The notes below the pieces were generated by a model that searched no databases, had not been told where the DNA came from, and worked only from the letters and a program-made list of their open reading frames with translations. Below are positions 2,110 to 17,567 of a DNA stretch of 64,000 nucleotides, one piece after another. The stretch spans positions 22,732-86,731 of the forward strand of contig CAZHEV010000013.1 of assembly GCA_964531335.1 (NCBI GenBank), in the 5' to 3' direction. The DNA comes from an uncultured bacterium. GTDB lineage: Bacteria > Eisenbacteria > RBG-16-71-46 > CAZHEV01. How positions within the stretch are numbered: position 1 is the stretch's first letter; every line of letters begins with the position of its first letter. The position numbers and the translations under genes were made by a program.

Positions 2110-2152
2110 TTCGATTACCTCCTCCAGACGCCGACCTATGAAGCCGACTCTT

Positions 2153-2638: not shown

Positions 2639-2753
2639 ATTGCTACCCTCGTTCCCTAATAAGACGCACGATCCATGCCACTTCCCTTGCACTTATCTAG
2701 CTCTTTGTTTGTCAAGGGATTAAAGGTGCCCGTGGTTTCGGCGCCGCCGAGTA

Positions 2754-2808: not shown

Positions 2809-3097
2809 GTCGTGAGAGTATTCGATGGCCGGGGTCGGGCGTTGATCGGCGGGGAGCGCGAGAGCCCGCCCGTTCGGTGGCCGTGAAGACGAAAGGATAT
2901 GGGAGGGGACGCGCAGCTCGGCGCAACGGTCCCTTGCGGCCCGCATGTGCGCGGCCGGCCGTTTCAATAACACAAGCGCCGCCCGGGGTCCGAGACCGAA
3001 TGAAGAGCCGGGGTGACTGGGGGGCTACAAGCTGCTATTGTGCTTTGTGGTCGCCGCCCCGCGGGGGGGCAAGAGGTGATAGGAGGGCTTCTAGGAA

Positions 3098-4765
3098 ATG
3101 CATGACTCGGCCAAGTTCTTCATAGACAAGTTCCGGGAACTTATCGCTCTGGCGCCCGCCCTCGGTCGCTATTACGCGCCGAGGCCCTACAGAAACGCCG
3201 CCGTGCGCTTCAGGAACCCCGATTGCGCGATCGGGGACTTCGAGGCGAGATACGATATCGCCGAAAGCACCGGCTTCAACGTCTTCATGTTCCCCTCGAA
3301 CATGATACCGGGTTGCGACCTGCTCTCGGACTCGGGCACCTCCACTATGACTGTCAAGCAATGGGCGGAGATGATTCAGGGCGATGAGGCCTATGGCTCC
3401 AACGAGGGCTTCCAGGAGCTCAAGGATCAGATCGTCGACACCTTCGGGCCGCAGTGGGCACAGCTCAAGTCGGAGAACGAGGTTCTTTTCTTGTTCCATC
3501 AGGGACGCGCCGCCGAGCACGCGATGTTCACATTGCTGGGCGGGGAGCTGGGGCGGCGCGCCGGCGAGGTCGGACCGCTTGCCGGGTCATCTTTCATGAG
3601 CGAGATCCCGGAGGACTTGAGAAAGAGCATAACCGATGAGATCGAGGCCATAGAGAGGCGCATGCACAGAACGGGGGTGGCGGGCAAACAGGTCGAGTTT
3701 TTGATTCCGAGCAACGGCCATTTCGACACCACCCAGGAAAACATAGAGGACAGCTTCATCGTGCCGCTCAACCTGCCCTGCAAGGAGCACATGGCCAAGG
3801 ACGAGGCGTTTCCCTTTCGCGGGAACATGGACATCGACGCGCTCGAGCTGCTCCTGGAACATGCCGGCGATCGCGTTCCTCTCGTCATACTCACGATCAC
3901 CAACAACACGGGCGGAGGCCAGCCCGTGTCCATGGCGAACATAAAGGCCGTGAGCGAGGCGGCGCATGAGCACGGAGTTCCCTTTATCTTCGACGCGTGC
4001 CGGTTCGCCGAGAACGCCTGGTACATCATGGAGCGCGAGGAAGGGTTCCGCGAAAAAGGGATCAGGCACATAGTCCGCGAGATGTTCAGCTACGTGGACG
4101 GATTTCACATAAGCCTCAAGAAAGACGGTCTCGTCAACATGGGCGGCGGGCTGCTCATAAAGCCCGACGGATTGATGGATGAGAAATACCCCGCCCTGAA
4201 GGACAAGCTGACGGACTGGCAGATCATGGTCGAAGGGCATCCCACGTACGGAGGCCTTGCGGGCAGGGACATAAAGGGCGTCGCTGAAGGACTAAGGACG
4301 ATAGTCAGAAGAGAGTACCTCGATCACCGGATAGGCCAGGTCGAAGCCTTCGGCCGAAAGCTAAGCGAGTACGGAATCCCCATAGCGAAGCCCATAGGGG
4401 GACACGCGGTCTACATAGACATAGACGAATTCTTCGACGGCCAGAACGTCAAGGACGAAGACTATAAGGGGATCGCCTTCACCGCGCTGTTGCTCGTGGC
4501 CGGCCACCGCCTCTGCGAGCTCGGGGTGCTTGCCTTCGGCCGCTACGATCCAGAGGCCGGCGTGGAGGTCCCGCCCAGCCCGAGAGTCAACTACGTGCGC
4601 GCCGCCGTTCCGCGATTGGCATACGAGGATCAGGACCTTTTCTCCGTGGCCGAGGCGGTGAGAGTCCTGCACGAGCACCGCGACCGCATACCGGCAATGC
4701 GGATAGTGTACGGCAGGGACCTGACGGTGCGGCACTTCAAGAGCAGGTTCGAGTTCGCGGGCTAG
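3098..4765 (+). CDS. Beta-eliminating lyase, tryptophanase/tyrosine phenol-lyase family (PLP-dependent)
   Basis: 555 aa; RBS AGGAGGG before ATG. Family motifs: DSGTSTM, GNMDIDALELL...TNNTGGGQPVSMANIKAV, DACRFAENAWYIMERE, PLP-lysine context SLKKDGLVNMGGG. Longer than canonical TnaA (N-terminal extension and an internal insert). Substrate not assignable. Confidence 0.85.
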   Translation: MHDSAKFFIDKFRELIALAPALGRYYAPRPYRNAAVRFRNPDCAIGDFEARYDIAESTGFNVFMFPSNMIPGCDLLSDSGTSTMTVKQWAEMIQGDEAYGSNEGFQELKDQIVDTFGPQWAQLKSENEVLFLFHQGRAAEHAMFTLLGGELGRRAGEVGPLAGSSFMSEIPEDLRKSITDEIEAIERRMHRTGVAGKQVEFLIPSNGHFDTTQENIEDSFIVPLNLPCKEHMAKDEAFPFRGNMDIDALELLLEHAGDRVPLVILTITNNTGGGQPVSMANIKAVSEAAHEHGVPFIFDACRFAENAWYIMEREEGFREKGIRHIVREMFSYVDGFHISLKKDGLVNMGGGLLIKPDGLMDEKYPALKDKLTDWQIMVEGHPTYGGLAGRDIKGVAEGLRTIVRREYLDHRIGQVEAFGRKLSEYGIPIAKPIGGHAVYIDIDEFFDGQNVKDEDYKGIAFTALLLVAGHRLCELGVLAFGRYDPEAGVEVPPSPRVNYVRAAVPRLAYEDQDLFSVAEAVRVLHEHRDRIPAMRIVYGRDLTVRHFKSRFEFAG

Positions 4766-5056
4766 GGGCCGCGACGATCGGCCCGGTGCGCATCTGGTGG
4801 CCCCAAAGTCGTTCCTCTAAGGAGCTTATCGGTTGCCTCGACGGCAGGCCCCATCCGCGTATCGCCCTCTGAGAGCGTCGCGCTGGCCGCACCATTCATT
4901 CACGCCGCCCTTATCGCGGCGCCGCTAATTAGCGTGTCAAGCTCATGAAAATGGTGTACAATCCGGGCGTAGAGCCGTGGGAAACGCCTAGCGGTCCTTG
5001 GGGCGCGCCACGCGAGCCCCATCGGTTTTCCATTCACGGGTGACGAAGGGAGGCGG

Positions 5057-6106
5057 ATGACGATGGAAAAGGCCAACTTGAACTGGGGAGAGCTCCCCTT
5101 TGGGTACAGGCGTACCGACTGCCACATTGAGTACCGCTTCAGTGACGGCAAATGGGATGATGGGAAACTTGTCGATGACGACAGGCTGGACCTCAGCATC
5201 TCCGCCACCTGCCTGCATTACGGCCAGCAGTGCTTCGAAGGGGCAAAGGTTTTCGAGACCAAGGACGGAAGGGCGCTGGCCTTCAGGATCGAGAAGAACG
5301 CCGAGCGAATGGCGTACTCGGCGAACAAGATCCTGATGGAGCCCTTGCCGGTCGAAAAGTTCGTCGAGGCCGTCTTCAGAGTGGTCGACGCGAACCGCCG
5401 GTTCATCCCTCCGTTCGGCAGCGGAGCGAGCCTCTACGTCAGGCCTTTGTTGATAGGCACCTCGCCTCTGATAGGCGTGAAGCCTTCGACCGAGTACCTC
5501 TTCTTGATCTTCGTAAGCCCCGTCGGGCCGTACTTCAAGACCGGGCTGAAGCCCATCAAGCTGATAGTGGAGGAGTCCTTCGACAGGGCGGCTCCCAACG
5601 GGGTCGGCGACGCCAAGGTGGGCGGCAACTACGCCGCGGGGCTGAGGGCCTCCAGGAAGGCGCAGGAGGCGGGATACACCGAGGTCCTCTATCTCGACGC
5701 GGCGAGGAAGGAGTATCTGGACGAGTCCGGTCCCGCCAACTTCTTCGGAATCACTCCGGACAACAATTACGTAACGCCGGAATCGCCGTCCATCCTGAAG
5801 AGCATCACCAACATGAGCCTTAGGACCCTGGCCGAGGACCTGGGCATGGGGGTGGAGCGGCGGCCCGTGCACGTCAACGAGATATTCTACTTCAAGGAAG
5901 CCGGATGCTGCGGTACCGCGGCCGTCATTACCCCCGTCAAGAGCATCACCTTCAGGGACAGTACTGTAACTTACTGCGAGCGAGACGAGGTAGGCCCGTC
6001 GTCGAAGAAGCTCTATGAAACCTTGACCGGCATTCAAATGGGCGAGGTCGAGGACAAGTACGGATGGACCACCGAGATCCCCGTGGGCTCCAAGGTGGGC
6101 TCCTAG
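5057..6106 (+). CDS. ilvE: Branched-chain amino acid aminotransferase (class IV aminotransferase)
   Basis: 349 aa; RBS GAAGGGAGG; overall resemblance to IlvE (FGTSPLIGV, GDAKVGGNYAAGL, EAGCCGTAAVITPV). Confidence 0.9.
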   Translation: MTMEKANLNWGELPFGYRRTDCHIEYRFSDGKWDDGKLVDDDRLDLSISATCLHYGQQCFEGAKVFETKDGRALAFRIEKNAERMAYSANKILMEPLPVEKFVEAVFRVVDANRRFIPPFGSGASLYVRPLLIGTSPLIGVKPSTEYLFLIFVSPVGPYFKTGLKPIKLIVEESFDRAAPNGVGDAKVGGNYAAGLRASRKAQEAGYTEVLYLDAARKEYLDESGPANFFGITPDNNYVTPESPSILKSITNMSLRTLAEDLGMGVERRPVHVNEIFYFKEAGCCGTAAVITPVKSITFRDSTVTYCERDEVGPSSKKLYETLTGIQMGEVEDKYGWTTEIPVGSKVGS

Positions 6107-6130
6107 GGGGATCCCGCCCAGACACCGCTG

Positions 6131-6159
6131 TTGACATCACACTCGCCCCCGCGCATAAT
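6131..6159 (+). promoter_or_regulatory. Near-consensus sigma70-type promoter TTGACA-17-CATAAT
   Basis: Direct reading: TTGACA at 6131-6136, 17-nt spacer, CATAAT at 6154-6159; about 230 nt upstream of the 6388 gene. Confidence 0.4.
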
Positions 6160-6387
6160 GGCTCCTCGGTTGGGAGGGAATCGCGCGGGGGCGTCCCGCG
6201 TAGACCCTGTTTTCGGCTCGTTAAGCTCGTTTGAGACACATAGACTGGACCCCTCGGCCGCCCCGGATCACTCGTGCCCGGGCAGCCCCGGGCGTCATTC
6301 CCTAAGCTGACAGCAGGCTCCGCCTTACATAGCCATGTGAACAAGCAGTGCTTTGCCGTGTGTCCCTGCAAACTCGGGAGGTAAGCC

Positions 6388-8340
6388 ATGAGACACGTTT
6401 CGGTTGGAAGCCGCTTCGTTTACGCCGTCCTAGCCGGAGCCGTTCTCCTCGGTCTGTGGAGCCGCCCCTGTCAGTCTGATGACTGGAAGGGTCTGGCAAA
6501 GAAAAACTCCTTTTGGGCTGAGCTCAAGCGCGAGCACGGGGCCGCGGCGGGGGCGGTCATGTTGCTCGAGGAGGCCGAGACCCGAGTCAGGATCGAGCGC
6601 GGCTACAGTCAGACCAAGACTTACTACACTTACGTGGCCGCGATCTTGGATCCCGTCGAGGCCTACGAACTGGGCGAGTGGCGGGTTTGGAAGCTGCCAT
6701 CCAGCGCCATCGGTGATATCTCAGCTAATACATATCTAAAGTCAGGCAAGAAAGTCTCGGTTAGATCCGATGACGTTCGCGAGGCCAAGTCGGGCGACGC
6801 TACCGTGTACGAGTTCGCTCTGCCGCACTTCAAAGAGAACTGCATAGTCGAGGTCAAATACTGGATTGCCAATGAGGGCTGGTTCGTGGGTACCGAATGG
6901 CTCTTCGGCGGCAGCCACCCCACGCAGGTCTCGAGGCTGAGGCTCCTGTTTCCGGCGTGGATCGCCGAAATCAGCGCCTCCGATTGGCCCCAGGCATACG
7001 CTGCCAGAAGGGCGGTTCCAAAGCCGAAGTTCGACAGGGAGTTCACGACCGACGGGGACGTGGTGAGCTTCACATGGGAGCTCAAAGACCTGCCCGGAGT
7101 CCGGGAGGAGCCCTATATGCCGCCCGTGCGGGATCTGGTTCCGGCCGTCAAGATCGGGGCGACGCAGAAGGGGTTCCCCTGGGACCAGGCGTGCCGGTGG
7201 TATTTCGAGACCTACCTCATGGAAAGACTCGACCCCAAGCCCGAGATAAAGCAGTTGGCGATGAAGCTGTCCTCCGGAAAGGGCTCTCGAGAGGCCAGGC
7301 TTCGGTCCCTGTACGATTACGTGCGAAAGAACGTGCGGTACACGGACATTCCGCTTACCAAGAGCGGCATCTGTCCGAAGCACCCCGAGACGGTCTTGAG
7401 GAACGCGAACGGAGACTGCAAGGATCAGGCGACCCTGCTCGTAGCCCTGGCCGGGGCGATAGGACTGCCGGCCAAGTGCGCTCTTGTGCGGACCAGGGAC
7501 CTGGGTGAGGTCGAGGAGCGCATCACCGACCTGGGCGCGTTCAACCATATGATCGCGGTGGCCGACTTGGACGGGGCCGAATACTGGCTCGACCCGACCG
7601 CCACGCCCTGCCCGTTCGGCGAGCTGCCCCTCCAGGACCAGGGCGTGCGCGCTTTGGTCATAGATGAAGGCGGCGACTCCGGTTTTCGCACGACGCCGGT
7701 GAGCGGCCCCGGCGATAACAGCACGATGACCTGGACGACGGCGGTGCTGGGGGAGGATGGTTCGATCGAGGCTGAAATACGAATGTGTCCGAAGGGCCAA
7801 CACGCCTCAGGATGGCGACATGTTCTGAGCACGGCGAAGGACGAGGACATACAGAGATACCTCAATTACAGGTGCAAGGGCGCAGAGATCAAGGAGTGGT
7901 CTGCGGAAGGGGGCGAGATGTACGGCGCCGATCTCGAGTTGCGATGCAGCTTCGAGAAAGCCGACTTCGCCACCGTGGCCGAGGACATAATAGTCTTGAA
8001 GCCGGCTGTCTATTCCGAGCCGGACCTATGTAACAGATTCTCAGGCGATCGCAGAGAATACCCCATCAATATGCTGTCAATGGCATGTTGGGTGGATTCG
8101 GTGACGGTCGTGATTCCGGACGGATACGGGATCCAGGAGCCCCCCGAGCCGGTGCGCTTGGAAGGGCCCCTCGGGGAGTTCGAGATGAGCCTGGCCGTTC
8201 ACGGGGACGAGCTCAGATGCTACCGGCGCTTCGAGATCGACACGCTGGTGTGCGGCAAACATCAATACCCCGACCTCAGGGAGTTCCTGGGCCGGATTCG
8301 CAAGTGTTGCGGCAAGGGCATAGTGCTGAAGAAGGTGTGA
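6388..8340 (+). CDS. DUF3857 / transglutaminase-like domain protein with N-terminal signal peptide
   Basis: 650 aa; hydrophobic N-terminus; transglutaminase-core-like Cys region (NGDCKDQATLLVALAGAIGLPA) with downstream His/Asp. Confidence 0.75.
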   Translation: MRHVSVGSRFVYAVLAGAVLLGLWSRPCQSDDWKGLAKKNSFWAELKREHGAAAGAVMLLEEAETRVRIERGYSQTKTYYTYVAAILDPVEAYELGEWRVWKLPSSAIGDISANTYLKSGKKVSVRSDDVREAKSGDATVYEFALPHFKENCIVEVKYWIANEGWFVGTEWLFGGSHPTQVSRLRLLFPAWIAEISASDWPQAYAARRAVPKPKFDREFTTDGDVVSFTWELKDLPGVREEPYMPPVRDLVPAVKIGATQKGFPWDQACRWYFETYLMERLDPKPEIKQLAMKLSSGKGSREARLRSLYDYVRKNVRYTDIPLTKSGICPKHPETVLRNANGDCKDQATLLVALAGAIGLPAKCALVRTRDLGEVEERITDLGAFNHMIAVADLDGAEYWLDPTATPCPFGELPLQDQGVRALVIDEGGDSGFRTTPVSGPGDNSTMTWTTAVLGEDGSIEAEIRMCPKGQHASGWRHVLSTAKDEDIQRYLNYRCKGAEIKEWSAEGGEMYGADLELRCSFEKADFATVAEDIIVLKPAVYSEPDLCNRFSGDRREYPINMLSMACWVDSVTVVIPDGYGIQEPPEPVRLEGPLGEFEMSLAVHGDELRCYRRFEIDTLVCGKHQYPDLREFLGRIRKCCGKGIVLKKV

Positions 8341-8506
8341 CGGCGCGGGGCGCCCTATATCTGCCGGAGATACTGTATCTTCATGAAGTACTGGCGGCTT
8401 GTCTGGGTCCAGCCCCGGCGGCCGTCCTCGGCGATCTTGCGGTGAAATAGGTGTTGAAGAGATCGCCGCCCTCCTGGAAGAAGGGCCGCATGGGAAGGCG
8501 ATGAGA

Positions 8507-9421
8507 TTATCCCCGGTCCCTTGTCTTCTTCAGCTTGTCCTTGGCCTTGGAGAGCGAGCGGGCCCGCCTCTGGATCCCGGCCCAAGGGTCCTCTCTTTGC
8601 GAGAGGCGCCGAAACAGGCTCTTGATATCGTACTTGGCCGAGCTCAGGCCCTTTCCGCCCAGCTCGTCCCAGTCCAGGGGCGTCGCCACCGGCGCGCCCA
8701 CCTTGGCCCGGACCGAGTAAGGCGCGACGCCGCTTTGCGCGTAGGCGTTTCTGTTTACGTCTATGAAGACGCGACCGCCCCTTTTGTTCTTCCTCTGCTC
8801 GGTGGTGCGGTTGTCCGGGTCGAGCTCGACGGCCAGTTCGGCGATGTGGTCCGCGAGCTTGCGCGTCGTGTCGAAAGTCGGACCTCTCCTTATGGGCACG
8901 ACCACGTGCAGTCCGGTAGATCCTGTGGTCATGACGTGCGGCACCAGCCCCGCCTCTTCTACTATCTCCCTCAGGGCCCGCGCGGTCTCGCACGCCGCCT
9001 TGAACCTGTCCCCCGGCGGATCTATGTCGAATATCATCCTGTCGGGGCGGCGGGGCCTATCGTGCTTGCATAGCATCGCGTGAAACGTGATACAGGCCTG
9101 GTCGGCCAGATAGACCAGGTCGGCCGTCTTCTCGCAGACGACGTGCCTTACCGTTCCGCCTTCTTTCTTCAGCGTGACGCCCTTTAGCCACTTGGGGAAG
9201 TAGTCAGATCGCTTCCTCTGGTAGAACTCCTTGCCCCCGAGCCCATCCGGCAGTCTCTGCATCGTGACGGGACGGCCCTTTACGTGATCGAGCATGACGT
9301 CCGCTATCCGGCGGTAGTAGTCGATGAGATCGTCCTTTGTAACGCCTGAGTCCTTGAACAGGACCTTGTCCTCGTTCGATGTCTCGACTGTGATCTTCCC
9401 GAAGGTGTGTTTGCCGGCCAC
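8507..9421 (-). CDS. LigD polymerase (primase-polymerase) domain protein, stand-alone
   Basis: GTG start at 9421 with RBS GAAGGAGG 10 nt upstream; motifs IFDIDP (DxD) and TTGSTGLHVVVPI typical of NHEJ PolDom. Confidence 0.8.
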   Translation of the reverse strand: MAGKHTFGKITVETSNEDKVLFKDSGVTKDDLIDYYRRIADVMLDHVKGRPVTMQRLPDGLGGKEFYQRKRSDYFPKWLKGVTLKKEGGTVRHVVCEKTADLVYLADQACITFHAMLCKHDRPRRPDRMIFDIDPPGDRFKAACETARALREIVEEAGLVPHVMTTGSTGLHVVVPIRRGPTFDTTRKLADHIAELAVELDPDNRTTEQRKNKRGGRVFIDVNRNAYAQSGVAPYSVRAKVGAPVATPLDWDELGGKGLSSAKYDIKSLFRRLSQREDPWAGIQRRARSLSKAKDKLKKTRDRG

Positions 9422-9426
9422 AGTGT

Positions 9427-9840
9427 CTAAGCCTCCTTCACGACTTTCTTGGGGCTCTTGTCCGATCTCAAGCCGAGAAAGCTGGGATGGCGGAGCCTCT
9501 CATCGCCCGTCCACCCGGTGAAGCTGACCTCGGCCACGAGCTTGGGGCTGACCCAGTGCGCGTCGGTGTCCTTGTCGATGCCCTTGTCGAAGGGGCAGGT
9601 CTCGCGCTCGATGGAGCGGAGCCCCTTGACGCCGCTCCGCCTTGCCTCCTTCGTCTGCATCCTGGGCTGTAGCCTCTTGAAGCTCGTGCGCGATCCCTTG
9701 AAGGCCATCACCTCGCCGCCGGCATCTCGGTGGCGTTGTATCGCCGGCGTCTTCGCCGGTCGCGTCGAGGCCCTCGACCCATCGCCGGGCTTCGGGCCCA
9801 TCAGCGGGCAGCCAGGGCCTCGTCGCGGCCCATGAGCCAC
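9427..9840 (-). pseudogene. Remnant of an ATP-dependent DNA ligase (LigD ligase, C-terminal OB-fold only)
   Basis: Only the last part matches ligase (...RETCPFDKGIDKDTDAHWVSPKLVAEVSFTGWTGDERLRHPSFLGLRSDKSPKKV); no adenylation-domain motifs in any frame between 9427 and 9907, and 486 nt is too short for a ligase domain. Frame differs from the PE gene. Confidence 0.5.
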
Positions 9841-9907
9841 CGGCGACCCTCCAGCCCATCGCGGGGAGCCAGTGCCTCCTCGCGGCGGTAACCGGGCTCA
9901 GCGCCGG

Positions 9908-10552
9908 TCAGTTCTTTCCCTCAGCCTCCTCCGCTATCTCCTCTATCGTCTTTCCGCTCAGAACGGACTCAGGCTCCGTGCTCACCGGGTTCCTGCGCGC
10001 GTCCGCGTCGTCGTCCTTCATCTTGATCAGCAGCCAGTTGTTCTCGCCGCCGCCCATCTTCGTCTTGACCAGCGCGTATCCGCCGCGGAGCTTCTTTCCT
10101 TCGAGACGCATTTCTATGCGGCCGTCCTCGAAGCATTTGTCCATGGGGATCTCATCTCCGTCGTCGTCTTCCTTTATGTTCTTGTATCTGCCCGTGTCCC
10201 AGACGAGCACGGTCCCCGCGCCGTAGTTGTCCTCGGGTATCACCCCCTCGAAGTCCGAGTACTCGAGAGGATGATCCTCGGTCAGCACGGCAAGACGCTT
10301 CTCGCGGGGGTCCGTGGACGGCCCCTTGGGCACCGCCCAGGATTTCAAGACGCCCTCTATCTCCAAGCGGAAGTCGTAGTGGAGCCTGCTCGCGTCGTGC
10401 TTCTGGATCACGAAGATGGGCTTACGTCCGGAGCTGCCCTTGGCCGGCTTAGGCCCCCTCTTGCCCGTTGTCCGCCTCTTTTCCTTTCCCGAGGGCTCCG
10501 GGGTCGACTTGAAATCGCGCTTTTTTTGGTACTCCTTGAGTTCCTTGGGCAT
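9908..10552 (-). CDS. LigD 3-prime phosphoesterase (PE) domain protein, stand-alone
   Basis: Internal ATG 10552 (MPKELKEY...); motif FVIQKHDASRLHYDFRLEIEGVLKSWAVPKGPS is the hallmark PE signature. Confidence 0.8.
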   Translation of the reverse strand: MPKELKEYQKKRDFKSTPEPSGKEKRRTTGKRGPKPAKGSSGRKPIFVIQKHDASRLHYDFRLEIEGVLKSWAVPKGPSTDPREKRLAVLTEDHPLEYSDFEGVIPEDNYGAGTVLVWDTGRYKNIKEDDDGDEIPMDKCFEDGRIEMRLEGKKLRGGYALVKTKMGGGENNWLLIKMKDDDADARRNPVSTEPESVLSGKTIEEIAEEAEGKN

Positions 10553-10621
10553 CTTTCGGGCTCCCTTGGCGTGAACGGGTGCTTGCGGCCTACTGATCAA
10601 TGGCCTGCGGCCCGCCCGGGG

Positions 10622-11350
10622 TCAACCCAGATAGTCCAACAGCTTCCGGGCGTCATCGACGGCGTAGGCGTTTTGATCGTTGTCGAAGTAACAGTAGACG
10701 TCCAGCCCCTCTCCGTTCCAGTCCGATATCCTGCGGGCCCACGCGCGCAGCGTGTTGCCGTGATAGCTGCCCTCGTACGCCCCCTCCGGGCCGTGCAGGC
10801 GGACGTACACGAAGTCGGCCGTGACCTCGTGCGGAGTCTCGCGCCTGTTCAGCTCGTAGATGCAAAAGGCCGCGTGGTGATCGGATAGGATCTCGTAAAT
10901 CTGATCGTCCCACCAGCTCTCATCTCGAAACTCGAAGGTGTACCTCGTTCCAGAGGGCAGTGATTTCAAGAAGGCGACGAGCCTCTCGGGGTCCGCTTTC
11001 CAGCGGGGGGGAAGCTGGAAAAGGACGGGGCCCATCTTGCCCTTCAGCCCGGCGGCCTGCGAGAAGAAACGCTCGACCGGCTCCTTTGGGTCCTTGAGCT
11101 TTTTCATGTGGGTGATGTACCGGCCGGCCTTGACGGCGAAGAGGAAGTCCTTCGGCGTGCGCTTTCTCCAGTCCTCGAAGGTCTTCTTCCCCGGCAGATT
11201 GTAGAAGGAGTTGTTTATCTCGGCGGTCTTGAAGTGTCCCCGGTAGTGCTCCAGCCACTTCTTCTGAGGCAGGTCCTCCGGGTAGAAAGGGCCCTGCCAG
11301 TGCTTGTATATCCATCCGGAGGTTCCGATATGGTACTTGCCCTTTGCCAT
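10622..11350 (-). CDS. DUF72 (YecE-like) family protein
   Basis: 242 aa; MAKGKYHIGTSGWIYKHWQGPFYPEDLP...WLEHY...FKTAEINNSFY; RBS GGGAG. Confidence 0.85.
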   Translation of the reverse strand: MAKGKYHIGTSGWIYKHWQGPFYPEDLPQKKWLEHYRGHFKTAEINNSFYNLPGKKTFEDWRKRTPKDFLFAVKAGRYITHMKKLKDPKEPVERFFSQAAGLKGKMGPVLFQLPPRWKADPERLVAFLKSLPSGTRYTFEFRDESWWDDQIYEILSDHHAAFCIYELNRRETPHEVTADFVYVRLHGPEGAYEGSYHGNTLRAWARRISDWNGEGLDVYCYFDNDQNAYAVDDARKLLDYLG

Positions 11351-11474
11351 GATGATCTCCCGGATGTGCGACTCTTCCGGCTGGCTTCCATCCCGGGCAC
11401 AGGCGGCCGCGGGCGTGTAAACGCGGTCGCGGAGCTCGCGCCGGCCCCGTTTTCTGTGACCGGCGTCCGGGAGC

Positions 11475-13004
11475 CTATGAACCCCTCTTGCCGGCCCGGG
11501 TCGTCTTAGCCGCGGTGCCGGAGGATCGCTTTCTGGAAGCAGTGCGCCGCTTTATGTAGAAGTAATAGCTGAGGAATTTCTCCAGAAAGTCGTCGGCCGC
11601 GCCGCTCTTGTCGTTGTACGCCACCGTCTCCTTGCCGATCATGAGCGCCGCGTAGGCCAGCTTGTCCCTGGGCCCGCCTTGCATGTTGTCCCGATAGTCG
11701 CGGTTCAGGGTGTTAACCTGAACGACGCCGTCCGAGAACCTGCTGTGACGCCTGCCGCCTTCTTCAAAGGCCGCCTCCATATAGTTCATTCTCGGGCCTC
11801 TTGGAGTGGGACGATCTCCAGGCTCCTTTGGGGGACTCTCGGGCATCCTGAGCTGGCCCTTCTTTTCCAGCTTGCGTTGCTTAATTGTCTTCTCCGATTT
11901 CTTTCGCCTACGCTTGGCCAATCCGCCCGGCAGCTCCAGGTCGGTGAACTCATCAAGGTCGAGAATCTCCCTGGCGAGCTTGAGCGCGCGCTTCTGGACG
12001 GAGGAGAGCTCTTTCTCCTGCTCTTCCTTCAACCTCATCTCGACCTCGGCCTCGATCTGCGGAGCGTGCCTGTCGAGGAGGCTAAGGAAGGAGATCCAGT
12101 CGTCATTGTCCTCGAAACCGGTGCGAGCGGGCAGCGGTTGAAGGAAATCGGCGTCGATGAAGCCCTTCACGTAGCCTGAGGCGTAGATGCTCTCCTCGAG
12201 GCCGTACGCATCGGCCTGGGAGACGTCGTCAACGATCACCACGCCCGTGTGGCGTATGTTTACCTTCCCCTTTCCTGAGGGATCGAAATAGAGCTCGATG
12301 CCCAAGGACTTCTCCTGCTCGCCGGGTACCGGTATCCGCTCCAGCCCGCCTGCGATTCGAGGGAGGTCGATGACCGACGGCTCGACAACATAGCGATTGC
12401 CGCCCTTCAGAATCTCCACCTCCAGCCACCCCCTTCGGAGATGGCTGTCGAATCGCTCGGCGAAGACCCTGCGGAGCCTCGAAGGATCCAATGGACCCCT
12501 GGGCTTGGTGGGATCCAACTTGAGCTCGGAGATGACGATTCTCTGGCCCGGCGCGGACAGGGATTCCTTCTTCAGCGCGCTGCGGAACTCCGCCTCAGGA
12601 CTCCCCTCCCGCAGGATTACTTTTAGCGTTTCGTCCTCGCCGTCTTTTCTGGACAGAAACGTGCACTTTCGACCGATCTGCTGAAAGCTGAAGATTCCAA
12701 TGCCGAGCTGTCCGATCTGGGGCACCTTGGTGCGCCTCTTTGCGGAGTCGGCCACTCTGTGCAGGGCCGTCTCGAACTCCCCGCGAGCCATTCCATAGGG
12801 ATAATGGATCTGAACGGAGCGCTTGGTCAGGTGAAAGGAGACCCTACAGACGGGGAGGGCGTTGCCGCTCTCGGCGGCCTTGAGGTGCTCGTCGATGGCG
12901 TTGCTTATATGCTCCTTCACGGCGTCGGCGGGGTTGCGGTAGAGCGTCCCCAGCCACTGAAGGGCGTTTGCGACGTTGAGCCTTATCGGCACTCGCTTCG
13001 GCAT
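11475..13004 (-). CDS. GHKL (Hsp90/MutL/MORC-like) ATPase domain protein, function unknown
   Basis: 509 aa; Bergerat-fold boxes: N-box EHISNAIDEH, G2-box GQLGIGIFSF; charged, coiled-coil-like middle (KEEQEKELSSVQKRALKLAREI) and C-terminal region without recognisable motif. Confidence 0.65.
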   Translation of the reverse strand: MPKRVPIRLNVANALQWLGTLYRNPADAVKEHISNAIDEHLKAAESGNALPVCRVSFHLTKRSVQIHYPYGMARGEFETALHRVADSAKRRTKVPQIGQLGIGIFSFQQIGRKCTFLSRKDGEDETLKVILREGSPEAEFRSALKKESLSAPGQRIVISELKLDPTKPRGPLDPSRLRRVFAERFDSHLRRGWLEVEILKGGNRYVVEPSVIDLPRIAGGLERIPVPGEQEKSLGIELYFDPSGKGKVNIRHTGVVIVDDVSQADAYGLEESIYASGYVKGFIDADFLQPLPARTGFEDNDDWISFLSLLDRHAPQIEAEVEMRLKEEQEKELSSVQKRALKLAREILDLDEFTDLELPGGLAKRRRKKSEKTIKQRKLEKKGQLRMPESPPKEPGDRPTPRGPRMNYMEAAFEEGGRRHSRFSDGVVQVNTLNRDYRDNMQGGPRDKLAYAALMIGKETVAYNDKSGAADDFLEKFLSYYFYIKRRTASRKRSSGTAAKTTRAGKRGS

Positions 13005-13024
13005 TCAGGCGTTCCCGTTTCGTA

Positions 13025-13219
13025 CTACTCTGTGTACGCGCTTAGCCGGACCATGATTATCGCGTCCGACTCGCACCTCCAGCCGGCCACCTCGGGTCCG
13101 GCATATTCTCCGAACTCCTCGCTCCAGCTGAAGGCCGTGATATGCGAGCATGTGACCGTGCCTGTCACTTTGTTCTCCACGTAGAATTCATTGTATTTGC
13201 CATAGATAAGAATGCCCAC
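13025..13219 (-). CDS. Small hypothetical protein (64 aa) directly upstream of the GHKL ATPase
   Basis: ORF with coding-like third-position GC bias; stop 20 nt before the GHKL start; no recognisable motif. Confidence 0.3.
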   Translation of the reverse strand: MGILIYGKYNEFYVENKVTGTVTCSHITAFSWSEEFGEYAGPEVAGWRCESDAIIMVRLSAYTE

Positions 13220-13463
13220 AGCACTTAGACTCCATTGTTTCGCGTCCCAGGGTGTGGTTCTGACCGCGCTCGCATGGGGGCCTCCTCATGTTACCCGTCG
13301 GGGCGTGTGGTGTGCTGGATTGGTACCACAGAAAACCGGCGGAATCAAGGGGATGCGCGGTTTTTCGCCGGGCCTGCAACGACGTCTCAACCGGGAAACC
13401 GCAAGAAAAGAGCAGGGCTCCGAGTTAGCCTCGCGGACCCTGCTCCTAGATGTCTTGCTTGAC

Positions 13464-13482
13464 GGGCCGGTGGCTCCGGCCC
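13464..13482 (-). terminator. GC-rich hairpin GGGCCGG-tggct-CCGGCCC just after the TadG-like gene stop
   Basis: Direct reading; 7-bp perfect stem; no U-tract, so terminator function is uncertain. Confidence 0.25.
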
Positions 13483-13499
13483 GTTCTCAGTTGGCGTAT

Positions 13500-14732
13500 C
13501 TACTCCACGAGCCTGGTGAGGAAGACGAAGCCGCCCGAGAAGCCTCCGCCGGTGACGGCGTCCGGATCCACGATCTGTAACAGCCGGCCGTAGACCGTGG
13601 TGGTGTTTTTGCTCCTCATGTCGCTCACAAACCAATGTGAGATCTTGACTATGGTGACAACCTTGTCGGATGAGCCCTGCACGTCCCCCGGGTGGAAGAA
13701 GGCTATGGCGCCGATCCGCGGGCAATATATCGTCTCGTCGTGGCTGTGTCCCTCGATCTTGCCTGTGTCCTCGTTGTAGGAAGAGGTCGGGCATTCGTCG
13801 ATGATGGTTGATGTACCTTGCTTCGTAGGACCCTGCATGTTGCCGTACTCGAGCCGTACCCTGTCACCTATCTGGACCAGGTAGGGGGACTTGTTAATTA
13901 TGAAATTCCTGTAGGCCGCCGCGCCGCTCTGAGGCCTCTCGCCCGTGTAGTAGTCGAGCGGAGGCCACCTCGTCGGGTAGAAGAACCCCGCCGTGAGCGC
14001 ATCCTGCGGAGTTCCCTGCTTGAGCACAAGCTCGAGCCCAGCGTCGTTGAAAGGCGAGGGCGGCCCCGTGCCGTATCCCGTAAGGATCGGATCGTAGAAG
14101 TCGCCCACGTCGTATTTCTTGTTGTTGTTCAGGTCGGCGTAGGGCTCGCCGGGATCCCACTCGCCGTTCTTGTTGAGATCGTCGAAGGGCTCGGGCTCGT
14201 CCCACACGCCGTCGCCGTCGTTATCCTGGAAGCGGTCGGGGAGGATCCACGGGAAGAACCCTCTCGTGCCTCCCGCGCCCACAAGCTGCGCCGTGGCGTC
14301 GGCCGAGACGTCCGCGATGTTGTCCCCGAAAGGCTTGATCAGTCCTATGAAATAAGTGCGAAGCGGGTCCTGGGTCGCCTCGGTCCTGTGGGTTCTGACC
14401 GTGACTTCCACAGCGGACGGAAACGATACGTCGGCTTCCGTAATCTCGACCGCGCCGATAGTGTGCTCTTTGAACGCGTTGTTCAACGCGGCCACCTCGA
14501 TCGCCACGTTCGTCGCGTTATGTTCGCGCTGATTGGAAGTCGTCGCGCCACTGGGCAGTAGCTCGTGCACGGCGGCAAGACACGCCGCGTCGGCGGCGTT
14601 TTGTAGCTGGGTCTTGGTTGTCTGGATCGCAGACATGTCTATGGCAAGCACCGCGGCGCCCATTATGAGGGCCATGGAAACCGCAACCCAGATTACCGCG
14701 ATGCCCCGTTCATCCTTGGCGATCTTTTTCAT
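13500..14732 (-). CDS. TadG-like (Tad/Flp pilus-associated) protein with Asp-rich Ca-binding-like repeats
   Basis: Start ATG 14732 with RBS GGGGGA; N-terminal MKKIAKDERGIAVIWVAVSMALIMGAAVLAIDMS typical of TadE/G-like proteins; DNDGDGVWD / NKNGEWDPGE repeats. Confidence 0.7.
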   Translation of the reverse strand: MKKIAKDERGIAVIWVAVSMALIMGAAVLAIDMSAIQTTKTQLQNAADAACLAAVHELLPSGATTSNQREHNATNVAIEVAALNNAFKEHTIGAVEITEADVSFPSAVEVTVRTHRTEATQDPLRTYFIGLIKPFGDNIADVSADATAQLVGAGGTRGFFPWILPDRFQDNDGDGVWDEPEPFDDLNKNGEWDPGEPYADLNNNKKYDVGDFYDPILTGYGTGPPSPFNDAGLELVLKQGTPQDALTAGFFYPTRWPPLDYYTGERPQSGAAAYRNFIINKSPYLVQIGDRVRLEYGNMQGPTKQGTSTIIDECPTSSYNEDTGKIEGHSHDETIYCPRIGAIAFFHPGDVQGSSDKVVTIVKISHWFVSDMRSKNTTTVYGRLLQIVDPDAVTGGGFSGGFVFLTRLVE

Positions 14733-14847
14733 GACTTGTCCCCCGATCTTTCGATCTCGGGTGTTTCCGCCGTTTTCACGATCCAAGACCCGTCCTTGGA
14801 CAGTGAGCCTCGAAGGCGATCTATTCCTCAAACTCGCAGATCTATGC

Positions 14848-15279
14848 CTATGAAGGTGGACTTCCCGCCTCGTCCTTCATCACACATCTGGCCGACAAAG
14901 GTATGGTTCCGGGGATTATCCCCAGAATAGGCCCCGCAAAGAACTCGAAGTCGTAATTGACCACCACCTCCACCGTGGCCAGCGTGCTGGGAGTGGTCGA
15001 CCACGTCAACTCAATGTCGCCCGAATCGAGCACGATACCGGCCGTGGAAAGGACATCGTTTATCCTTTGATAGACGTCCGTGGTGCCGCTCTTGCCGGTC
15101 ACGGCCATAACCCGGGCGCCCTCCCGGGCCGCCGTGTGCAAAAGATTGCTGTGCCAGAAAATGCGTCCGAAGTCGACGATCCCGAAAAGGACGATGAGAA
15201 GGATTGGCAGCACGAACGCCAACTCGACGACGGTGCTTCCAGAGCGCGAGCGCCTCAATCCGGATACAAACCTCTTCAT
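14848..15279 (-). CDS. TadE-like pilus assembly protein
   Basis: Start ATG 15279 with RBS AGGAGGTG; N-terminus MKRFVSGLRRSRSGSTVVELAFVLPILLIVLFGIVDFGR is the TadE-like motif. Confidence 0.75.
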   Translation of the reverse strand: MKRFVSGLRRSRSGSTVVELAFVLPILLIVLFGIVDFGRIFWHSNLLHTAAREGARVMAVTGKSGTTDVYQRINDVLSTAGIVLDSGDIELTWSTTPSTLATVEVVVNYDFEFFAGPILGIIPGTIPLSARCVMKDEAGSPPS

Positions 15280-15870
15280 GTGAACGCACCTCCTGAAGGC
15301 ACTACCTAAGGTACTCTTCAACAGGTATTACCACGATGCTTAATTATACCACAGCACCCTGTAAACCGACAACTTCGGAGGTTGGGGGGGCCTGCGAGGC
15401 CCCCTGCCGCGCCGTCATCCGGCGGGCTGCATGACCCACTCCCCGACGATCCTATTAGATTGCCGCCTTTGGCGAAAGATGCCGTCCTTCCCACTTTTCC
15501 CCGAGGCGTACCGGGCCCCCGGGGCGCGACCCTGGTGGGGGGCTGTCCGTAAGGCCCTGTCTTCCATAACAATCGGCAGCCATGCCGCCCCTATTTGGGA
15601 AAAGAGTCTTCGGCTATCCGCCCGGGTGGAATCCAGGCTTACTGCGCCCGCCGGGCGGCCTCAAGCGGCAAAAATTAAGCCACCCTGCTCGTTCGCCTGC
15701 CGTGGCGGCCGGTGACGTTTCGGACCTTGGGCAACCCCGGGGCTCAGAAAGTTGCTGAGGCCCCCTCCCTTGCGGCCTCCGGGGACGGATGGTCCGAGCC
15801 CGCCCCGCTTGACACAGGCGCCGACAGAATGGACATCAACCGGCAGTTCTGGCCGGACAGCGGAGACAAG

Positions 15871-16428
15871 CTATCTGAACTTCGCTTTCAGTCTCCCCCA
15901 GGACGATCTCTCGACCGGCACCTCTCCCACGATGACTACGATTCCCCTGCGGGTCGTATGCGGTATCGCGTTGTTGGAGCCGTCCCTGAGCTCGCTTTCT
16001 TCTATCTCCACGTAGGTCTTGCCTTCCGTGATGGCCTTGAAGGTGACCGTGAACAAAACTCCCGGTGTCATCACCACACCTCCAAGTATGGCCCCGCTGA
16101 CCTCGACGGTGCCGGGGCCGAAGGAGGTGTCGGAGTAGAAGAATGTCTCCTCTTCGCACTCCGCTGGCAGCGACCCTTCCTCCACAGAGACAAGCTCCAG
16201 GGAGTCGACGTCGAATGAGAACAAGATATCGTATCCCATAAGCTCGGTGGTATCGTCCTCGACATAGAAATGCAGGCCGAACTCGGTCCCGATGTCGACG
16301 ACGACCGAATCGGCCCGGACCGAGAGCTCCTGAGCCCACGGTGCACTGTGCGGCATGATCAAGCCGGCGGCCAGAAACAGCAATACCAACAACGATCTTG
16401 ACCTATCGAGGAACACGGCGGTCTCCAT
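15871..16428 (-). CDS. Secreted protein, cohesin-like fold suspected
   Basis: 185 aa with signal-peptide-like N-terminus; beta-rich composition; domain call is from memory only. Confidence 0.45.
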   Translation of the reverse strand: METAVFLDRSRSLLVLLFLAAGLIMPHSAPWAQELSVRADSVVVDIGTEFGLHFYVEDDTTELMGYDILFSFDVDSLELVSVEEGSLPAECEEETFFYSDTSFGPGTVEVSGAILGGVVMTPGVLFTVTFKAITEGKTYVEIEESELRDGSNNAIPHTTRRGIVVIVGEVPVERSSWGRLKAKFR

Positions 16429-16434
16429 TCTTGC

Positions 16435-17286
16435 TTACCTTGTCAGTATCAGCTTTCCTTTGAATTCCATCTCCTGTGTCCTCAGGACGGCCACATAGAC
16501 TCCGGCTGACACATTAACGCCGGCGTCGTTCTTCCCGTTCCATGAGAACGTGTTCGTGCCGCTTCCGAGCGGCCCGCGGTAGAGTCTTCTGACCACCCCT
16601 CCGGCGACGGAGCATATGAGGAGCTGTATCGTGTCGCCGGACCTGAGGCCGGCGCCGGTCGGCGGGGTGAAGGTGAGAGTGGCGACGGAATTGAACGGGT
16701 TGGGACGGCACCTGAAAGAGCTGGACGCGGGAATGCCCTCTCCGATTCCCGCCGCGGAGTTGACCCAGATCACAGCCGGGGCCGCCAGATCGACGGAGAG
16801 CTCGTTTCGATCTATGTCGTATACTTCCGCCTCGGCTATGGCTACCGGGCTCGAGCCGTTCTGCACGCCTTCAAAGACGAGAATGTAAAGCTCGCCCGGA
16901 GCCAGGATGAAGCTCCTGTGCCCAAGGACACAGTCCTCCACCCTCAAGCTGTCCGGCGCGATCAGCTCCCAGTTGAAAAAGGTCGAATAGGGGGCGTTCG
17001 CGTAAAGCTCTCCTTCTTCGACGGTAGTGCAGCTCACCACGCTTGGATCGAAGTACAACGTGCAGAACACGCAGCTCAGCGAGTCGACCGCGTCGTCAAC
17101 CACAACGCTCAGGGTGCAGCTTTGGCCCGGAGCGATGCAGGAGCTGGAAGGTTCCAGGGACAGCGTGGGAGAGGCGTCCGAGGCGTGACACCTGCTGGCG
17201 CCTAACACCGCCGTGAAAAGCCAAAGCACAAGGATCACGATCGGTATCCGTGCGAAATCCCCTCTATTTTCCGTCGCGTTTGCCAT
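16435..17286 (-). CDS. Secreted protein with C-terminal FlgD-Ig-like / T9SS-type sorting domain
   Basis: 283 aa; signal peptide; C-terminus CRPNPFNSVATLTF...GVYVAVLRTQEMEFKGKLILTR resembles the Por-secretion tail / FlgD-Ig family. Confidence 0.6.
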   Translation of the reverse strand: MANATENRGDFARIPIVILVLWLFTAVLGASRCHASDASPTLSLEPSSSCIAPGQSCTLSVVVDDAVDSLSCVFCTLYFDPSVVSCTTVEEGELYANAPYSTFFNWELIAPDSLRVEDCVLGHRSFILAPGELYILVFEGVQNGSSPVAIAEAEVYDIDRNELSVDLAAPAVIWVNSAAGIGEGIPASSSFRCRPNPFNSVATLTFTPPTGAGLRSGDTIQLLICSVAGGVVRRLYRGPLGSGTNTFSWNGKNDAGVNVSAGVYVAVLRTQEMEFKGKLILTR

Positions 17287-17567
17287 TGGGCTAACTCCCG
17301 GTACGGTGGCCTATGTTGGGCCCGCCGCCGCTTCATTGACTCCCCGTTGAGCTGACCGCAGACGCGGCGGCTTGCATGGCGCCCGCTACCGCCGCGTCGG
17401 TCCCAACGCGGCGGCCCAGCTGGGCTGGGCGTCAACGCCGTGGAGCCTGCTGCGTCGGCTCCATGGTGGTGGTCCTCACTGTAGCGATCCCACCGCGCCC
17501 GCGCCTCTTCGGCACAGGGCGAGGCGGAGGGCGGCGTGGCCGCCCTCCGCGCTCTCGACGCCTCCCG

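What the first reader, a model, noticed from the sequence alone, without database searches (positions are those of the whole stretch)
8507..13219. Co-directional DNA-end-processing cluster: small ORF, GHKL ATPase, DUF72, LigD phosphoesterase, ligase remnant and LigD polymerase, without intact ligase or Ku
Six minus-strand elements with short gaps (20, 124, 21 and 5 nt) combine the two accessory NHEJ activities (PE and PrimPol-type polymerase, both with intact catalytic motifs) with a MutL/MORC-like GHKL ATPase and a DUF72 protein, while the ligase domain is reduced to a fragment and no Ku gene is in the window. This is not a canonical NHEJ locus; it could be a non-canonical end-processing or repair module, or a nucleic-acid-targeting defence module built around a PrimPol and a GHKL ATPase.
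Basis: partly seen in the sequence, partly recalled or inferred. Interest (0 to 1): 0.65.

Follow-up and report, generated by a model that had tools for sequence, protein, structure and literature searches.

The report
Decaying Ku-less split LigD repair operon
A three-gene DNA-repair operon (end-cleaning phosphoesterase, ligase, repair polymerase) whose ligase gene has been gutted by deletions lies next to an unrelated MORC/Hsp90-like ATPase; this is ordinary gene decay plus chance neighbours, not a new repair or defence machine.

Summary
The six minus-strand ORFs are real and at the stated coordinates, but they are not one system. LigD-type PE (10552/10600-9908) and PolDom (9421-8507) are intact. 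Between them lies a dead ligase gene. Only residues ~97-129 and ~264-334 of a ~337-aa LigD-type ligase survive, joined in frame. The KxDG adenylation motif and the middle of the protein (ligase residues ~130-263) are gone. Relatives carry the same genes as an intact split operon PE-Lig-Pol (16 of 81 loci, plus 14 cut Lig-Pol). In 22 of 81 loci PE is followed by Pol with no ligase, and three loci show ligase stubs. Ligase loss from this Ku-less operon is therefore recurrent, and the window shows it in progress. DUF72 recurs beside such operons (7 of 81 loci, p~7e-6) and beside Fpg/Nei, so it is plausibly a repair accessory. However, its closest relative (81% identity) has no LigD genes nearby. 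The 509-aa ATPase belongs to an uncharacterised MORC/SMCHD1/Hsp90-like GHKL family. In 38 other loci it never sits beside LigD modules or DUF72, and it has no PADLOC hit. The 64-aa ORF is a truncated orphan. No Ku or other ligase lies in the 64 kb. The defence-module idea is not supported.

The parts
8507..9421 (-). Stand-alone LigD-type primase-polymerase (PolDom, AEP), 304 aa, intact.
   Evidence: PF21686 E 9e-84 and TIGR02778 above cutoff. Closest solved structure is the Methanocella paludicola NHEJ polymerase 5DMU, E 1e-84. All invariant columns of alignment A2 are kept, including D132, D134, H172 and D221.
9427..9840 (-). Pseudogene remnant of the LigD-type ATP-dependent ligase cistron. 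Window 9717-9628 corresponds to ligase aa ~97-129 (motif III region, GEVMAF...). Window 9630-9433 corresponds to aa ~264-334 (C-terminal end of the OB domain). The two pieces are joined in frame. 9718-9840 is degenerate.
   Evidence: tblastn of intact ligases from related loci. PF04679 matches only positions 31-94 of 94. No PF01068 adenylation domain and no KxDG motif. GC3 is 0.90 in the matched parts; there is no codon periodicity in 9718-9840.
9908..10600 (-). Stand-alone LigD 3'-phosphoesterase (PE), intact. The probable start is ATG 10552 (214 aa) rather than TTG 10600.
   Evidence: PF13298 E 3e-44 and TIGR02777 above cutoff. Closest solved structure is M. paludicola PE 5DMP, E 1e-58; the catalytic His/Asp/Arg/Tyr motifs are conserved against P. 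aeruginosa PE 2LJ6. RBS and start read from the sequence; the Logan gene call gives 214 aa.
10622..11350 (-). DUF72 (YecE-like TIM-barrel) protein, 242 aa. Possible accessory of the PE-Pol pair.
   Evidence: PF01904 E 1e-74. DUF72 lies within 2 kb of LigD modules in 7 of 81 related loci, Fisher p 7e-6. It lies beside Fpg/Nei in L126 and L127. Against linkage: the closest homolog (81% identity, L125) has no LigD genes nearby.
11475..13004 (-). Adjacent but NOT part of the repair unit: 509-aa GHKL ATPase of an uncharacterised MORC/SMCHD1/Hsp90-like family.
13025..13273 (-). Adjacent but NOT part of the unit: the 64-aa ORF (13219-13025) with in-frame upstream homology up to 13273. Probably a 5'-truncated remnant of a rare ~123-aa protein.
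   Evidence: The only credible homolog among 1.84 billion representatives is P0363 (123 aa); its residues 42-123 align to window 13273-13028 (44% identity, E 1e-15), with an in-frame stop just upstream. No copy lies upstream of any other ATPase homolog. A promoter-like site at 13218-13190 overlaps its start.

Best explanation
The core of the region (8507-10600, perhaps with DUF72 up to 11350) is a Ku-less 'split LigD' repair operon. In it the three LigD activities are separate, co-directional genes in the order PE - ligase - polymerase.

In this genome at least two deletions have destroyed the ligase cistron. One removed the 5' end with the adenylation lysine (motif I). The other, in frame, removed the middle of the protein (ligase residues ~130-263). 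PE and Pol remain intact.

Inferred mechanism:
1. PE removes 3'-phosphates or 3'-ribonucleotides.
2. Pol fills short gaps at 5'-phosphate-bearing breaks.
3. Sealing falls to a ligase encoded elsewhere, either housekeeping LigA or another ATP-dependent ligase.
4. DUF72, a TIM barrel related to UV-damage endonuclease, may supply an incision or end-processing step.

The GHKL ATPase and the 64-aa ORF are unrelated neighbours that happen to point the same way.

Shown here: gene identities, ligase decay, recurrence of ligase-less PE-Pol pairs, and lack of any ATPase linkage. Inferred: that PE and Pol still function here, which ligase seals, and the role of DUF72.
For: - An intact comparator exists. 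L007 carries PE(204)-Lig(337)-Pol(307) as three abutting genes, with 57-61% identity to the window's PE and Pol.
- Census of 81 related loci: 16 PE-Lig-Pol (plus 14 Lig-Pol cut at the contig end), 22 PE-Pol with gaps of -8 to 297 nt and no ligase, 1 PE-partial ligase-Pol.
- Ligase stubs also survive in L062 (aa 1-63 plus the C-terminal end), L076 (aa 1-29) and L099 (last ~22 aa). This gives the direction of change: loss.
- PE-Pol and PE-Lig-Pol loci interleave on a Pol NJ tree, so losses are recurrent.
- In one ligase-less lineage (L059 vs L061), dN/dS is 0.24 for PE and 0.145 for Pol. The pair is therefore maintained without an adjacent ligase.
- The window's remnant lacks KxDG and PF01068. 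PE and Pol keep their catalytic motifs.
- Ku lies next to only 1 of 81 such loci, and there is none in the window.
- DUF72, Fpg/Nei and an MBL-fold hydrolase recur next to these operons.
- The ATPase is unlinked.
- Literature: PE and Pol are known as separate operonic genes (PMC4797286). Genomes with PE/POL but no LIG are recorded (PMC7719229). DUF72 resembles UvdE and is enriched near TLS operons (PMC11791011).
Against: - The remnant still has strong codon periodicity (GC3 0.90). The deletions are therefore recent, and intact PE and Pol in this genome could simply not have decayed yet.
- The closest DUF72 homolog (81% identity, L125, from a related organism) has no LigD genes beside it.
- No Pol homolog above 58% identity exists in a 5.8-billion-protein database, although ~80% relatives exist for the neighbouring genes. 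The locus is therefore not conserved in the lineage.
- Only 64 kb of the genome was visible. Whether a Ku, a LigC/LigD ligase or a second complete operon exists elsewhere is unknown.
- No minus-strand terminator-like site lies between the ATPase and Pol, so co-transcription with the ATPase cannot be excluded.
Confidence: 0.65

Rival explanations
1. The whole LigD-type locus is a relic in the course of being lost. Ligase went first, and PE and Pol are no longer under selection and have no role in this organism.
For: - The ligase was destroyed by at least two deletions.
- The remnant still looks freshly coding (GC3 0.90), so the decay is recent and could continue.
- A related organism (L125) has DUF72 without any LigD genes.
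- There is no close Pol ortholog in relatives.
- NHEJ genes are known to be gained and lost sporadically (PMC7719229).
Against: - PE and Pol have no frameshift or stop and keep all invariant residues.
- Ligase-less PE-Pol pairs with tight spacing are common (22 of 81) and under purifying selection in at least one lineage. Loss of the ligase therefore does not imply loss of function of the pair.
Confidence: 0.2
2. One reading: the six co-directional genes form one non-canonical end-processing or anti-phage module, in which the GHKL ATPase works with the PrimPol, PE and DUF72.
For: - The genes are co-directional with short gaps.
- No minus-strand terminator-like hairpin lies inside the block. 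Terminator-like hairpins flank it at 13421-13409 and 8284-8267, and a promoter-like site lies at 13218-13190. These counts are within the shuffle expectation.
- In other genomes the ATPase often sits near toxin-antitoxin genes.
Against: - None of 38 ATPase loci (479 kb) has DUF72, PE, Pol or ligase.
- None of 81 Pol loci has the ATPase.
- No PADLOC hit for any of the five proteins scanned.
- The 64-aa ORF is not conserved with the ATPase.
- In relatives at ~80% identity the ATPase and DUF72 sit in separate contexts.
Confidence: 0.05
3. The truncated ligase is an assembly or binning artefact, for example a collapsed or chimeric join. The real genome would then carry an intact PE-Lig-Pol operon.
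For: - The source is a metagenome-assembled contig.
- The Logan assembly breaks at window 10635-10661, close to the DUF72/PE junction.
Against: - Both assemblies are 100% identical across the PE-remnant-Pol stretch, though they may share the same reads.
- The two surviving pieces are joined in frame inside one ORF.
- Independent loci from other samples show comparable ligase stubs, and many show clean PE-Pol junctions.
Confidence: 0.05

Closest known systems
Archaeo-prokaryotic NHEJ operon of Methanocella paludicola (separate Ku, Lig, Pol and PE genes; structures 5DMU Pol, 5DMP PE; PMC4797286)
   Same: PE and Pol are separate small proteins encoded side by side. They are the closest solved relatives of the window's proteins (E 1e-84 and 1e-58). 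The catalytic motifs are conserved.
   Different: Here the ligase cistron is a deletion remnant, and no Ku gene lies in the 64-kb window. Ku is adjacent in only 1 of 81 related loci.
Fused bacterial LigD of the Pseudomonas aeruginosa type (PE-Lig-Pol in one polypeptide)
   Same: The module order PE, ligase, polymerase is the same. The PE active-site sequence is almost identical (2LJ6 alignment). NCBIfam LigD models match each piece.
   Different: The modules are separate genes, none reaches the full-length LigD cutoffs, and the ligase module is dead.
Mycobacterial LigC / Prim-PolC excision-repair complex (PMC5663958, PMC7442782)
   Same: It is a Ku-independent use of a LigD-like AEP polymerase for short-gap filling together with BER enzymes. 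Relatives of this locus are often flanked by Fpg/Nei glycosylase genes (9 of 81) and by DUF72.
   Different: No LigC-type ligase lies beside the window's Pol, and a PE gene is present. Prim-PolC is a more distant PDB match (5OP0/6SA0, E ~6e-39) than the NHEJ polymerases. No interaction data exist.
MORC / SMCHD1 / Hsp90 branch of GHKL ATPases (for the 509-aa neighbour only)
   Different: Sequence identity is only 13-17%. There is no NCBIfam or PDB sequence hit. The protein is ~500 aa with a disordered basic linker. A subset of the family has an upstream or fused HTH_3 partner. Function is unknown.

Membership tests
Ku-LigD NHEJ system | Ku gene present (usually adjacent to or near ligD) | tested here: not met
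   tblastn with two Ku queries finds nothing in the 64-kb window. One query, from L123, was verified as PF02735 at 4.7e-43. The rest of the genome could not be examined.
Ku-LigD NHEJ system | ATP-dependent ligase module with the adenylation domain (motif I KxDG, motifs III-V) and the OB domain | tested here: not met
   Only ligase aa ~97-129 and ~264-334 survive. There is no PF01068 hit and no KxDG. No other ATP-dependent or NAD-dependent ligase lies in the window.
Ku-LigD NHEJ system | AEP primase-polymerase module with catalytic Asp/His motifs | tested here: met
   PF21686 E 9e-84; TIGR02778 245 bits against a cutoff of 214.7. FDIDPP, GSTGLH and FIDVNRN are conserved.
Ku-LigD NHEJ system | 3'-phosphoesterase module with the His/Asp/Arg/Tyr active site | tested here: met
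   PF13298 E 3e-44; TIGR02777 209.6 bits against a cutoff of 144. QKHDASRLHYDFRLE and EDHPLEY are conserved.
Split LigD operon (PE, Lig and Pol as separate adjacent genes) | Three separate co-directional genes in the order PE-Lig-Pol | tested here: met
   The order and strand match L007 and 15 further loci. The remnant sits exactly where the ligase gene lies.
Split LigD operon (PE, Lig and Pol as separate adjacent genes) | All three cistrons intact | tested here: not met
   The ligase cistron is reduced to a 137-codon ORF, of which ~100 codons are ligase-derived.
Known anti-phage defence systems (PADLOC-DB v2) | At least one protein matching a defence-system model | tested here: not met
   No hit at E <= 0.1 for Pol, PE, DUF72, the ATPase or the 64-aa ORF.
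DUF72 (PF01904, YecE-like) | Full-length match to the family profile | tested here: met
   E 1.2e-74, profile positions 1-215 of 217.
GHKL ATPases, MORC/Hsp90 branch (the 509-aa neighbour) | Bergerat-fold ATP-binding motifs and a GHKL plus S5-like transducer architecture | tested here: met
HtpG/Hsp90 chaperones proper | Sequence-level membership (curated family model) | tested here: not met
   No NCBIfam hit, Pfam gives only a sub-threshold PF13589 hit, and there is no PDB sequence hit.
LigC/Prim-PolC excision-repair apparatus | LigC-type ligase paired with the AEP polymerase, and physical association with BER enzymes | tested here: inconclusive
   No ligase lies beside the Pol in the window. 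Fpg/Nei genes abut related operons in 9 of 81 loci, but none is in the window. Protein interactions cannot be tested here.

The most novel reading that the evidence does not exclude
Ligase-less PE-Pol gene pairs are not broken NHEJ. Often accompanied by DUF72, Fpg/Nei or an MBL-fold hydrolase and almost never by Ku, they would be a widespread, self-standing single-strand-break / base-excision end-healing and gap-filling module. It would hand its product to housekeeping LigA. DUF72 would be its lesion- or end-incising nuclease. The window would then show the transition from the three-gene to the two-gene form.
Probability: 0.3. Interest if true: 0.55.

Novelty: new member of a known kind. Interest (0 to 1): 0.3.

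Why it matters
On its own the locus is an ordinary example of the sporadic gain and loss of LigD-type repair genes.

Two by-products may be useful:

1. In uncultured bacteria the split PE-Lig-Pol operon repeatedly sheds its ligase while keeping PE and Pol, and it is almost never next to Ku. These two enzymes may therefore have a Ku- and LigD-ligase-independent job. Genome censuses currently score such genomes simply as 'NHEJ-minus'.

2. DUF72 is an old domain of unknown function with solved structures. It shows a statistically clear neighbourhood link to LigD modules and to Fpg/Nei. That gives a concrete, testable repair hypothesis for it.

Tried and rejected
- PADLOC and NCBIfam scans of the ATPase and the small ORF returned nothing.
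- A sequence search of the PDB with the ATPase returned nothing.
- PHROGs gave only a marginal hit of unknown function for the ATPase.
- An Rfam scan of the whole window returned nothing.
- The sigma-70 and terminator scan gave counts within shuffle expectation, so it cannot settle transcription units.
- I looked for conserved neighbours of the ATPase that might tie it to repair. The only recurrent partner is an HTH_3 protein in the Dehalococcoidia / candidate-phyla-radiation (Saccharibacteria, Paceibacterota) / Ignavibacteria subset, and it is absent here.
- I considered that the 64-aa ORF is a partner or antitoxin of the ATPase. I rejected this: it is not conserved with the ATPase, and its single real homolog shows it is truncated. 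The two long 'homologs' of the ORF (P0362, P0364) are low-complexity repeat translations and were discarded.
- dN/dS for PE in L060 and L063 came out nonsensical because those PE genes differ by indels from L059 and L061. Only the L059/L061 pair was used.
- The organism could not be named. The cluster look-up returned no names or accessions, and the genome is not among the GTDB representatives hit.
- The Ku query first used was recalled from memory (M. tuberculosis Ku). It was validated only by its hit to L123, which Pfam confirms as Ku.


Full report
**Observation.**

Profile searches confirm their identities:
- 9421-8507 is a LigD primase-polymerase domain protein (PF21686, E 9e-84; TIGR02778 above cutoff).
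- 10600-9908 is a LigD 3'-phosphoesterase (PF13298, E 3e-44; TIGR02777 above cutoff).
- 11350-10622 is DUF72 (PF01904, E 1e-74).
- 13004-11475 gives only a sub-threshold HATPase_c_3 hit.
- 13219-13025 hits nothing.
- In the ORF 9840-9427, only the last ~65 residues match the C-terminal OB region of ATP-dependent ligases.

The quoted gaps hold for the longest ORFs. The PE gene more probably starts at ATG 10552, behind an AAGGGAG ribosome-binding site, which leaves 69 nt after DUF72. The Logan assembly of run SRR7048218 is base-for-base identical from window 1869 to 18343. The odd ligase region is therefore not peculiar to one assembler, although the reads may be the same.

**The ligase remnant.**

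A relative (L007, GCA_975957775.1) has three abutting genes: PE (204 aa), Lig (337 aa) and Pol (307 aa). They are 57-61% identical to the window's PE and Pol. Running that ligase and 20 others against the window by tblastn shows two surviving pieces in a single frame:
- Window 9717-9628 corresponds to ligase residues ~97-129, the motif III region (GEVMAFKGSRTSFKRLQPRMQ).
- Window 9630-9433 corresponds to residues ~264-334, the end of the OB domain.

Residues 1-~96, which include the KxDG adenylation lysine, are gone. So are residues ~130-263, the middle of the protein between motif III and the end of the OB domain. The matched pieces keep a GC3 of 0.90. The first 41 codons of the ORF (9718-9840) show no codon periodicity. 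This is a dead gene produced by at least two fairly recent deletions.

PE and Pol are intact:
- PE keeps QKHDASRLHYDFRLE and EDHPLEY, as in P. aeruginosa LigD PE.
- Pol keeps FDIDPP, GSTGLH and FIDVNRN, and every invariant column of a 30-sequence alignment.
- Their closest solved relatives are the stand-alone Pol and PE of Methanocella paludicola (5DMU, 5DMP; PMC4797286).

No Ku, no other ATP-dependent ligase and no LigA lies in the 64 kb.

**How unusual this is.**

A metagenome scan with a PolDom alignment returned 80 loci. Adding L007 gives the following census of 81 loci:

| Architecture | Loci |
|---|---|
| PE-Lig-Pol | 16 |
| Lig-Pol, cut off upstream by the contig end | 14 |
| PE-Pol, gap of -8 to 297 nt, no ligase | 22 |
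| PE-partial ligase-Pol | 1 |
| Lig-Pol-PE | 3 |
| Pol-PE | 2 |
| Pol alone | 10 |
| Undetermined | 11 |
| Other (PE ~3.7 kb from Pol; Pol on the minus strand) | 2 |

- Ligase stubs survive in L062 (residues 1-63 plus the C-terminal end), L076 (residues 1-29) and L099 (last ~22 residues).
- On a rough NJ tree of Pol, without support values, ligase-less and ligase-containing loci interleave at shallow depth. Examples are L076 with L088/L095, L056 with L054, L093 with L069, and L082 with L072.
- Loss of the ligase cistron is therefore recurrent, and the window shows an intermediate stage of it.
- In one ligase-less lineage (L059 vs L061), dN/dS is 0.24 for PE and 0.145 for Pol. This argues that the pair is maintained without an adjacent ligase.
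- Ku is adjacent in only one of the 81 loci (L123).

**DUF72.**

- DUF72 lies within 2 kb of the LigD modules in 7 of the 81 loci. In five it is directly downstream of Pol on the same strand.
- That is 7 hits in 183 kb of near flank, against 0 in 326 kb of far flank plus 479 kb of ATPase loci (Fisher p 7e-6). Some of these loci are related, so there are fewer independent events.
- Among homologs of the window's DUF72, L126 shows LigA-DUF72-Fpg with PE-Pol 5 kb downstream. L127 shows Fpg-DUF72. L128 shows nothing relevant.
- Fpg/Nei and an MBL-fold hydrolase each abut about nine of the Pol loci.
- DUF72 is a TIM barrel related to UV-damage endonuclease and is enriched near polB2 translesion operons (PMC11791011).
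- No paper in the library mentions DUF72 together with LigD or end joining.
- Against a fixed link: the closest DUF72 (81% identity, L125) has no LigD genes nearby. L125 comes from an organism whose aminotransferase is 87% identical to the window's.
- The best Pol homolog in 5.8 billion proteins is only 58% identical, while the ATPase and DUF72 have ~80% relatives. The LigD-type locus is therefore lineage-specific.

**The ATPase.**

- It belongs to a tight family: 461+ hits, ~500 aa, 44-81% identity.
- The genome scan found 36 loci, all of them MAGs. They span Gemmatimonadota, Acidobacteriota, Armatimonadota, Chloroflexota, Ignavibacteria, Firmicutes, Zixibacteria, Aminicenantes, Saccharibacteria and Paceibacterota. 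This distribution suggests horizontal spread.
- In 38 non-redundant loci (479 kb) no DUF72, PE, Pol, ligase or copy of the 64-aa ORF is present. No Pol locus carries the ATPase.
- Thirteen loci, none from the window's clade, have an abutting or fused HTH_3 partner.
- It has no PADLOC hit.

The ATPase is thus an uncharacterised stand-alone gene. Its position beside DUF72 is a lineage-specific juxtaposition.

**The 64-aa ORF.**

It has one credible homolog among 1.84 billion representatives (P0363, 123 aa). That alignment extends upstream of the GTG start to window 13273 and then meets an in-frame stop. The ORF is therefore a 5'-truncated remnant.

**Transcription.**

- Minus-strand terminator-like hairpins lie only outside the block, at 13421-13409 and 8284-8267.
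- A promoter-like site lies at 13218-13190.
- These counts are within shuffle expectation, so co-transcription is neither shown nor excluded.

**Verdict.**

- The reading as a single end-processing or defence module built around a PrimPol and a GHKL ATPase is not supported.
- What is there is a Ku-less split LigD operon that has just lost its ligase. DUF72 is a plausible accessory, and an unrelated MORC/Hsp90-like ATPase and a gene fragment are neighbours.
- The most interesting surviving idea is that PE-Pol, with or without DUF72 and Fpg, forms a ligase- and Ku-independent end-healing and gap-filling module. I put this at about 0.3.

Noticed in passing
window 11475-13004 (-); loci L001, L003, L004, L009-L044: The 509-aa ATPase defines an uncharacterised MORC/SMCHD1/Hsp90-like GHKL family of ~500 aa. 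It was found only in MAGs, across at least 10 phyla including the candidate-phyla-radiation groups Saccharibacteria and Paceibacterota, at 44-81% identity. It always stands alone and is often near toxin-antitoxin genes. The architecture is N-terminal GHKL domain, middle domain, long helix, basic disordered linker and small C-terminal domain. Some members carry an insertion in the linker (P0096, 592 aa).
   Followed up: partly
L028, L029, L031-L033, L035-L037, L039-L041 (gene ending 0-24 nt before the ATPase start); fused in P0074: In 13 loci (Dehalococcoidia, candidate phyla radiation, Ignavibacteria, Firmicutes, Zixibacteria) a conserved HTH_3 protein abuts the ATPase. Its C-terminal motif reads LLLLLEDELRWFRD...GYISSLLTML..E.KF.RW. 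It is fused to the ATPase in P0074. This looks like a two-gene form of the ATPase system and is absent from the window's clade.
   Followed up: partly
window 13028-13273 (-): The 64-aa ORF is homologous to the C-terminal two thirds of a single 123-aa protein (P0363). The similarity runs upstream of its GTG start to an in-frame stop, so it is a truncated remnant of a very rare small protein. A promoter-like site overlaps its start.
   Followed up: yes
L062 (201-605), L076 (4334-4772), L099 (1729-2024): Other PE-Pol loci keep stubs of the ligase gene between PE and Pol: the first 63 aa plus the C-terminal end, the first 29 aa, and the last ~22 aa. These are independent cases of the decay seen in the window.
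   Followed up: yes
L068, L075, L094, L095, L099, L104, L110, L112, L117; L126, L127: Fpg/Nei-family glycosylase genes repeatedly abut stand-alone LigD-module operons and DUF72 genes. L126 has LigA-DUF72-Fpg, then PE-Pol 5 kb downstream. This hints at a base-excision context rather than double-strand-break repair.
   Followed up: partly
L046, L050, L068, L074, L077, L086, L094, L108, L113: A ~240-aa MBL-fold hydrolase (Lactamase_B_2) recurs next to the PE/Lig/Pol genes. It may be a further nuclease-type accessory.
   Followed up: no
L060 and L063, about 9550-9963: In these marine PE-Pol loci the PE match is much shorter (414 nt, 45% identity) than in their near-identical relatives L059 and L061 (573 nt). 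PE itself may be decaying there.
   Followed up: no
window 10635-10661: The Logan assembly of SRR7048218 breaks into two contigs that overlap by 27 nt, just inside the 3' end of DUF72. This could reflect strain variation or a graph branch at the DUF72/PE junction.
   Followed up: no
L001 (6936-7665) and L125 (10958-11714): In the related organism(s) from JGI sample 3300017991, a HEPN/nucleotidyltransferase pair flanks both the ATPase homolog and the DUF72 homolog, on different contigs. No such pair lies in the window's region.
   Followed up: no
window 13500-21542 (-): Upstream of the ATPase lie Tad/TadE pilus-assembly genes, a cohesin-domain protein, and secreted proteins with FlgD_ig / Por_Secre_tail (T9SS-type) C-terminal domains. 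One of these is a 1324-aa beta-helix protein. Elsewhere the window holds ordinary chromosomal genes: an RND efflux pump, a molybdopterin oxidoreductase, a sulphur transporter and porins.
   Followed up: partly
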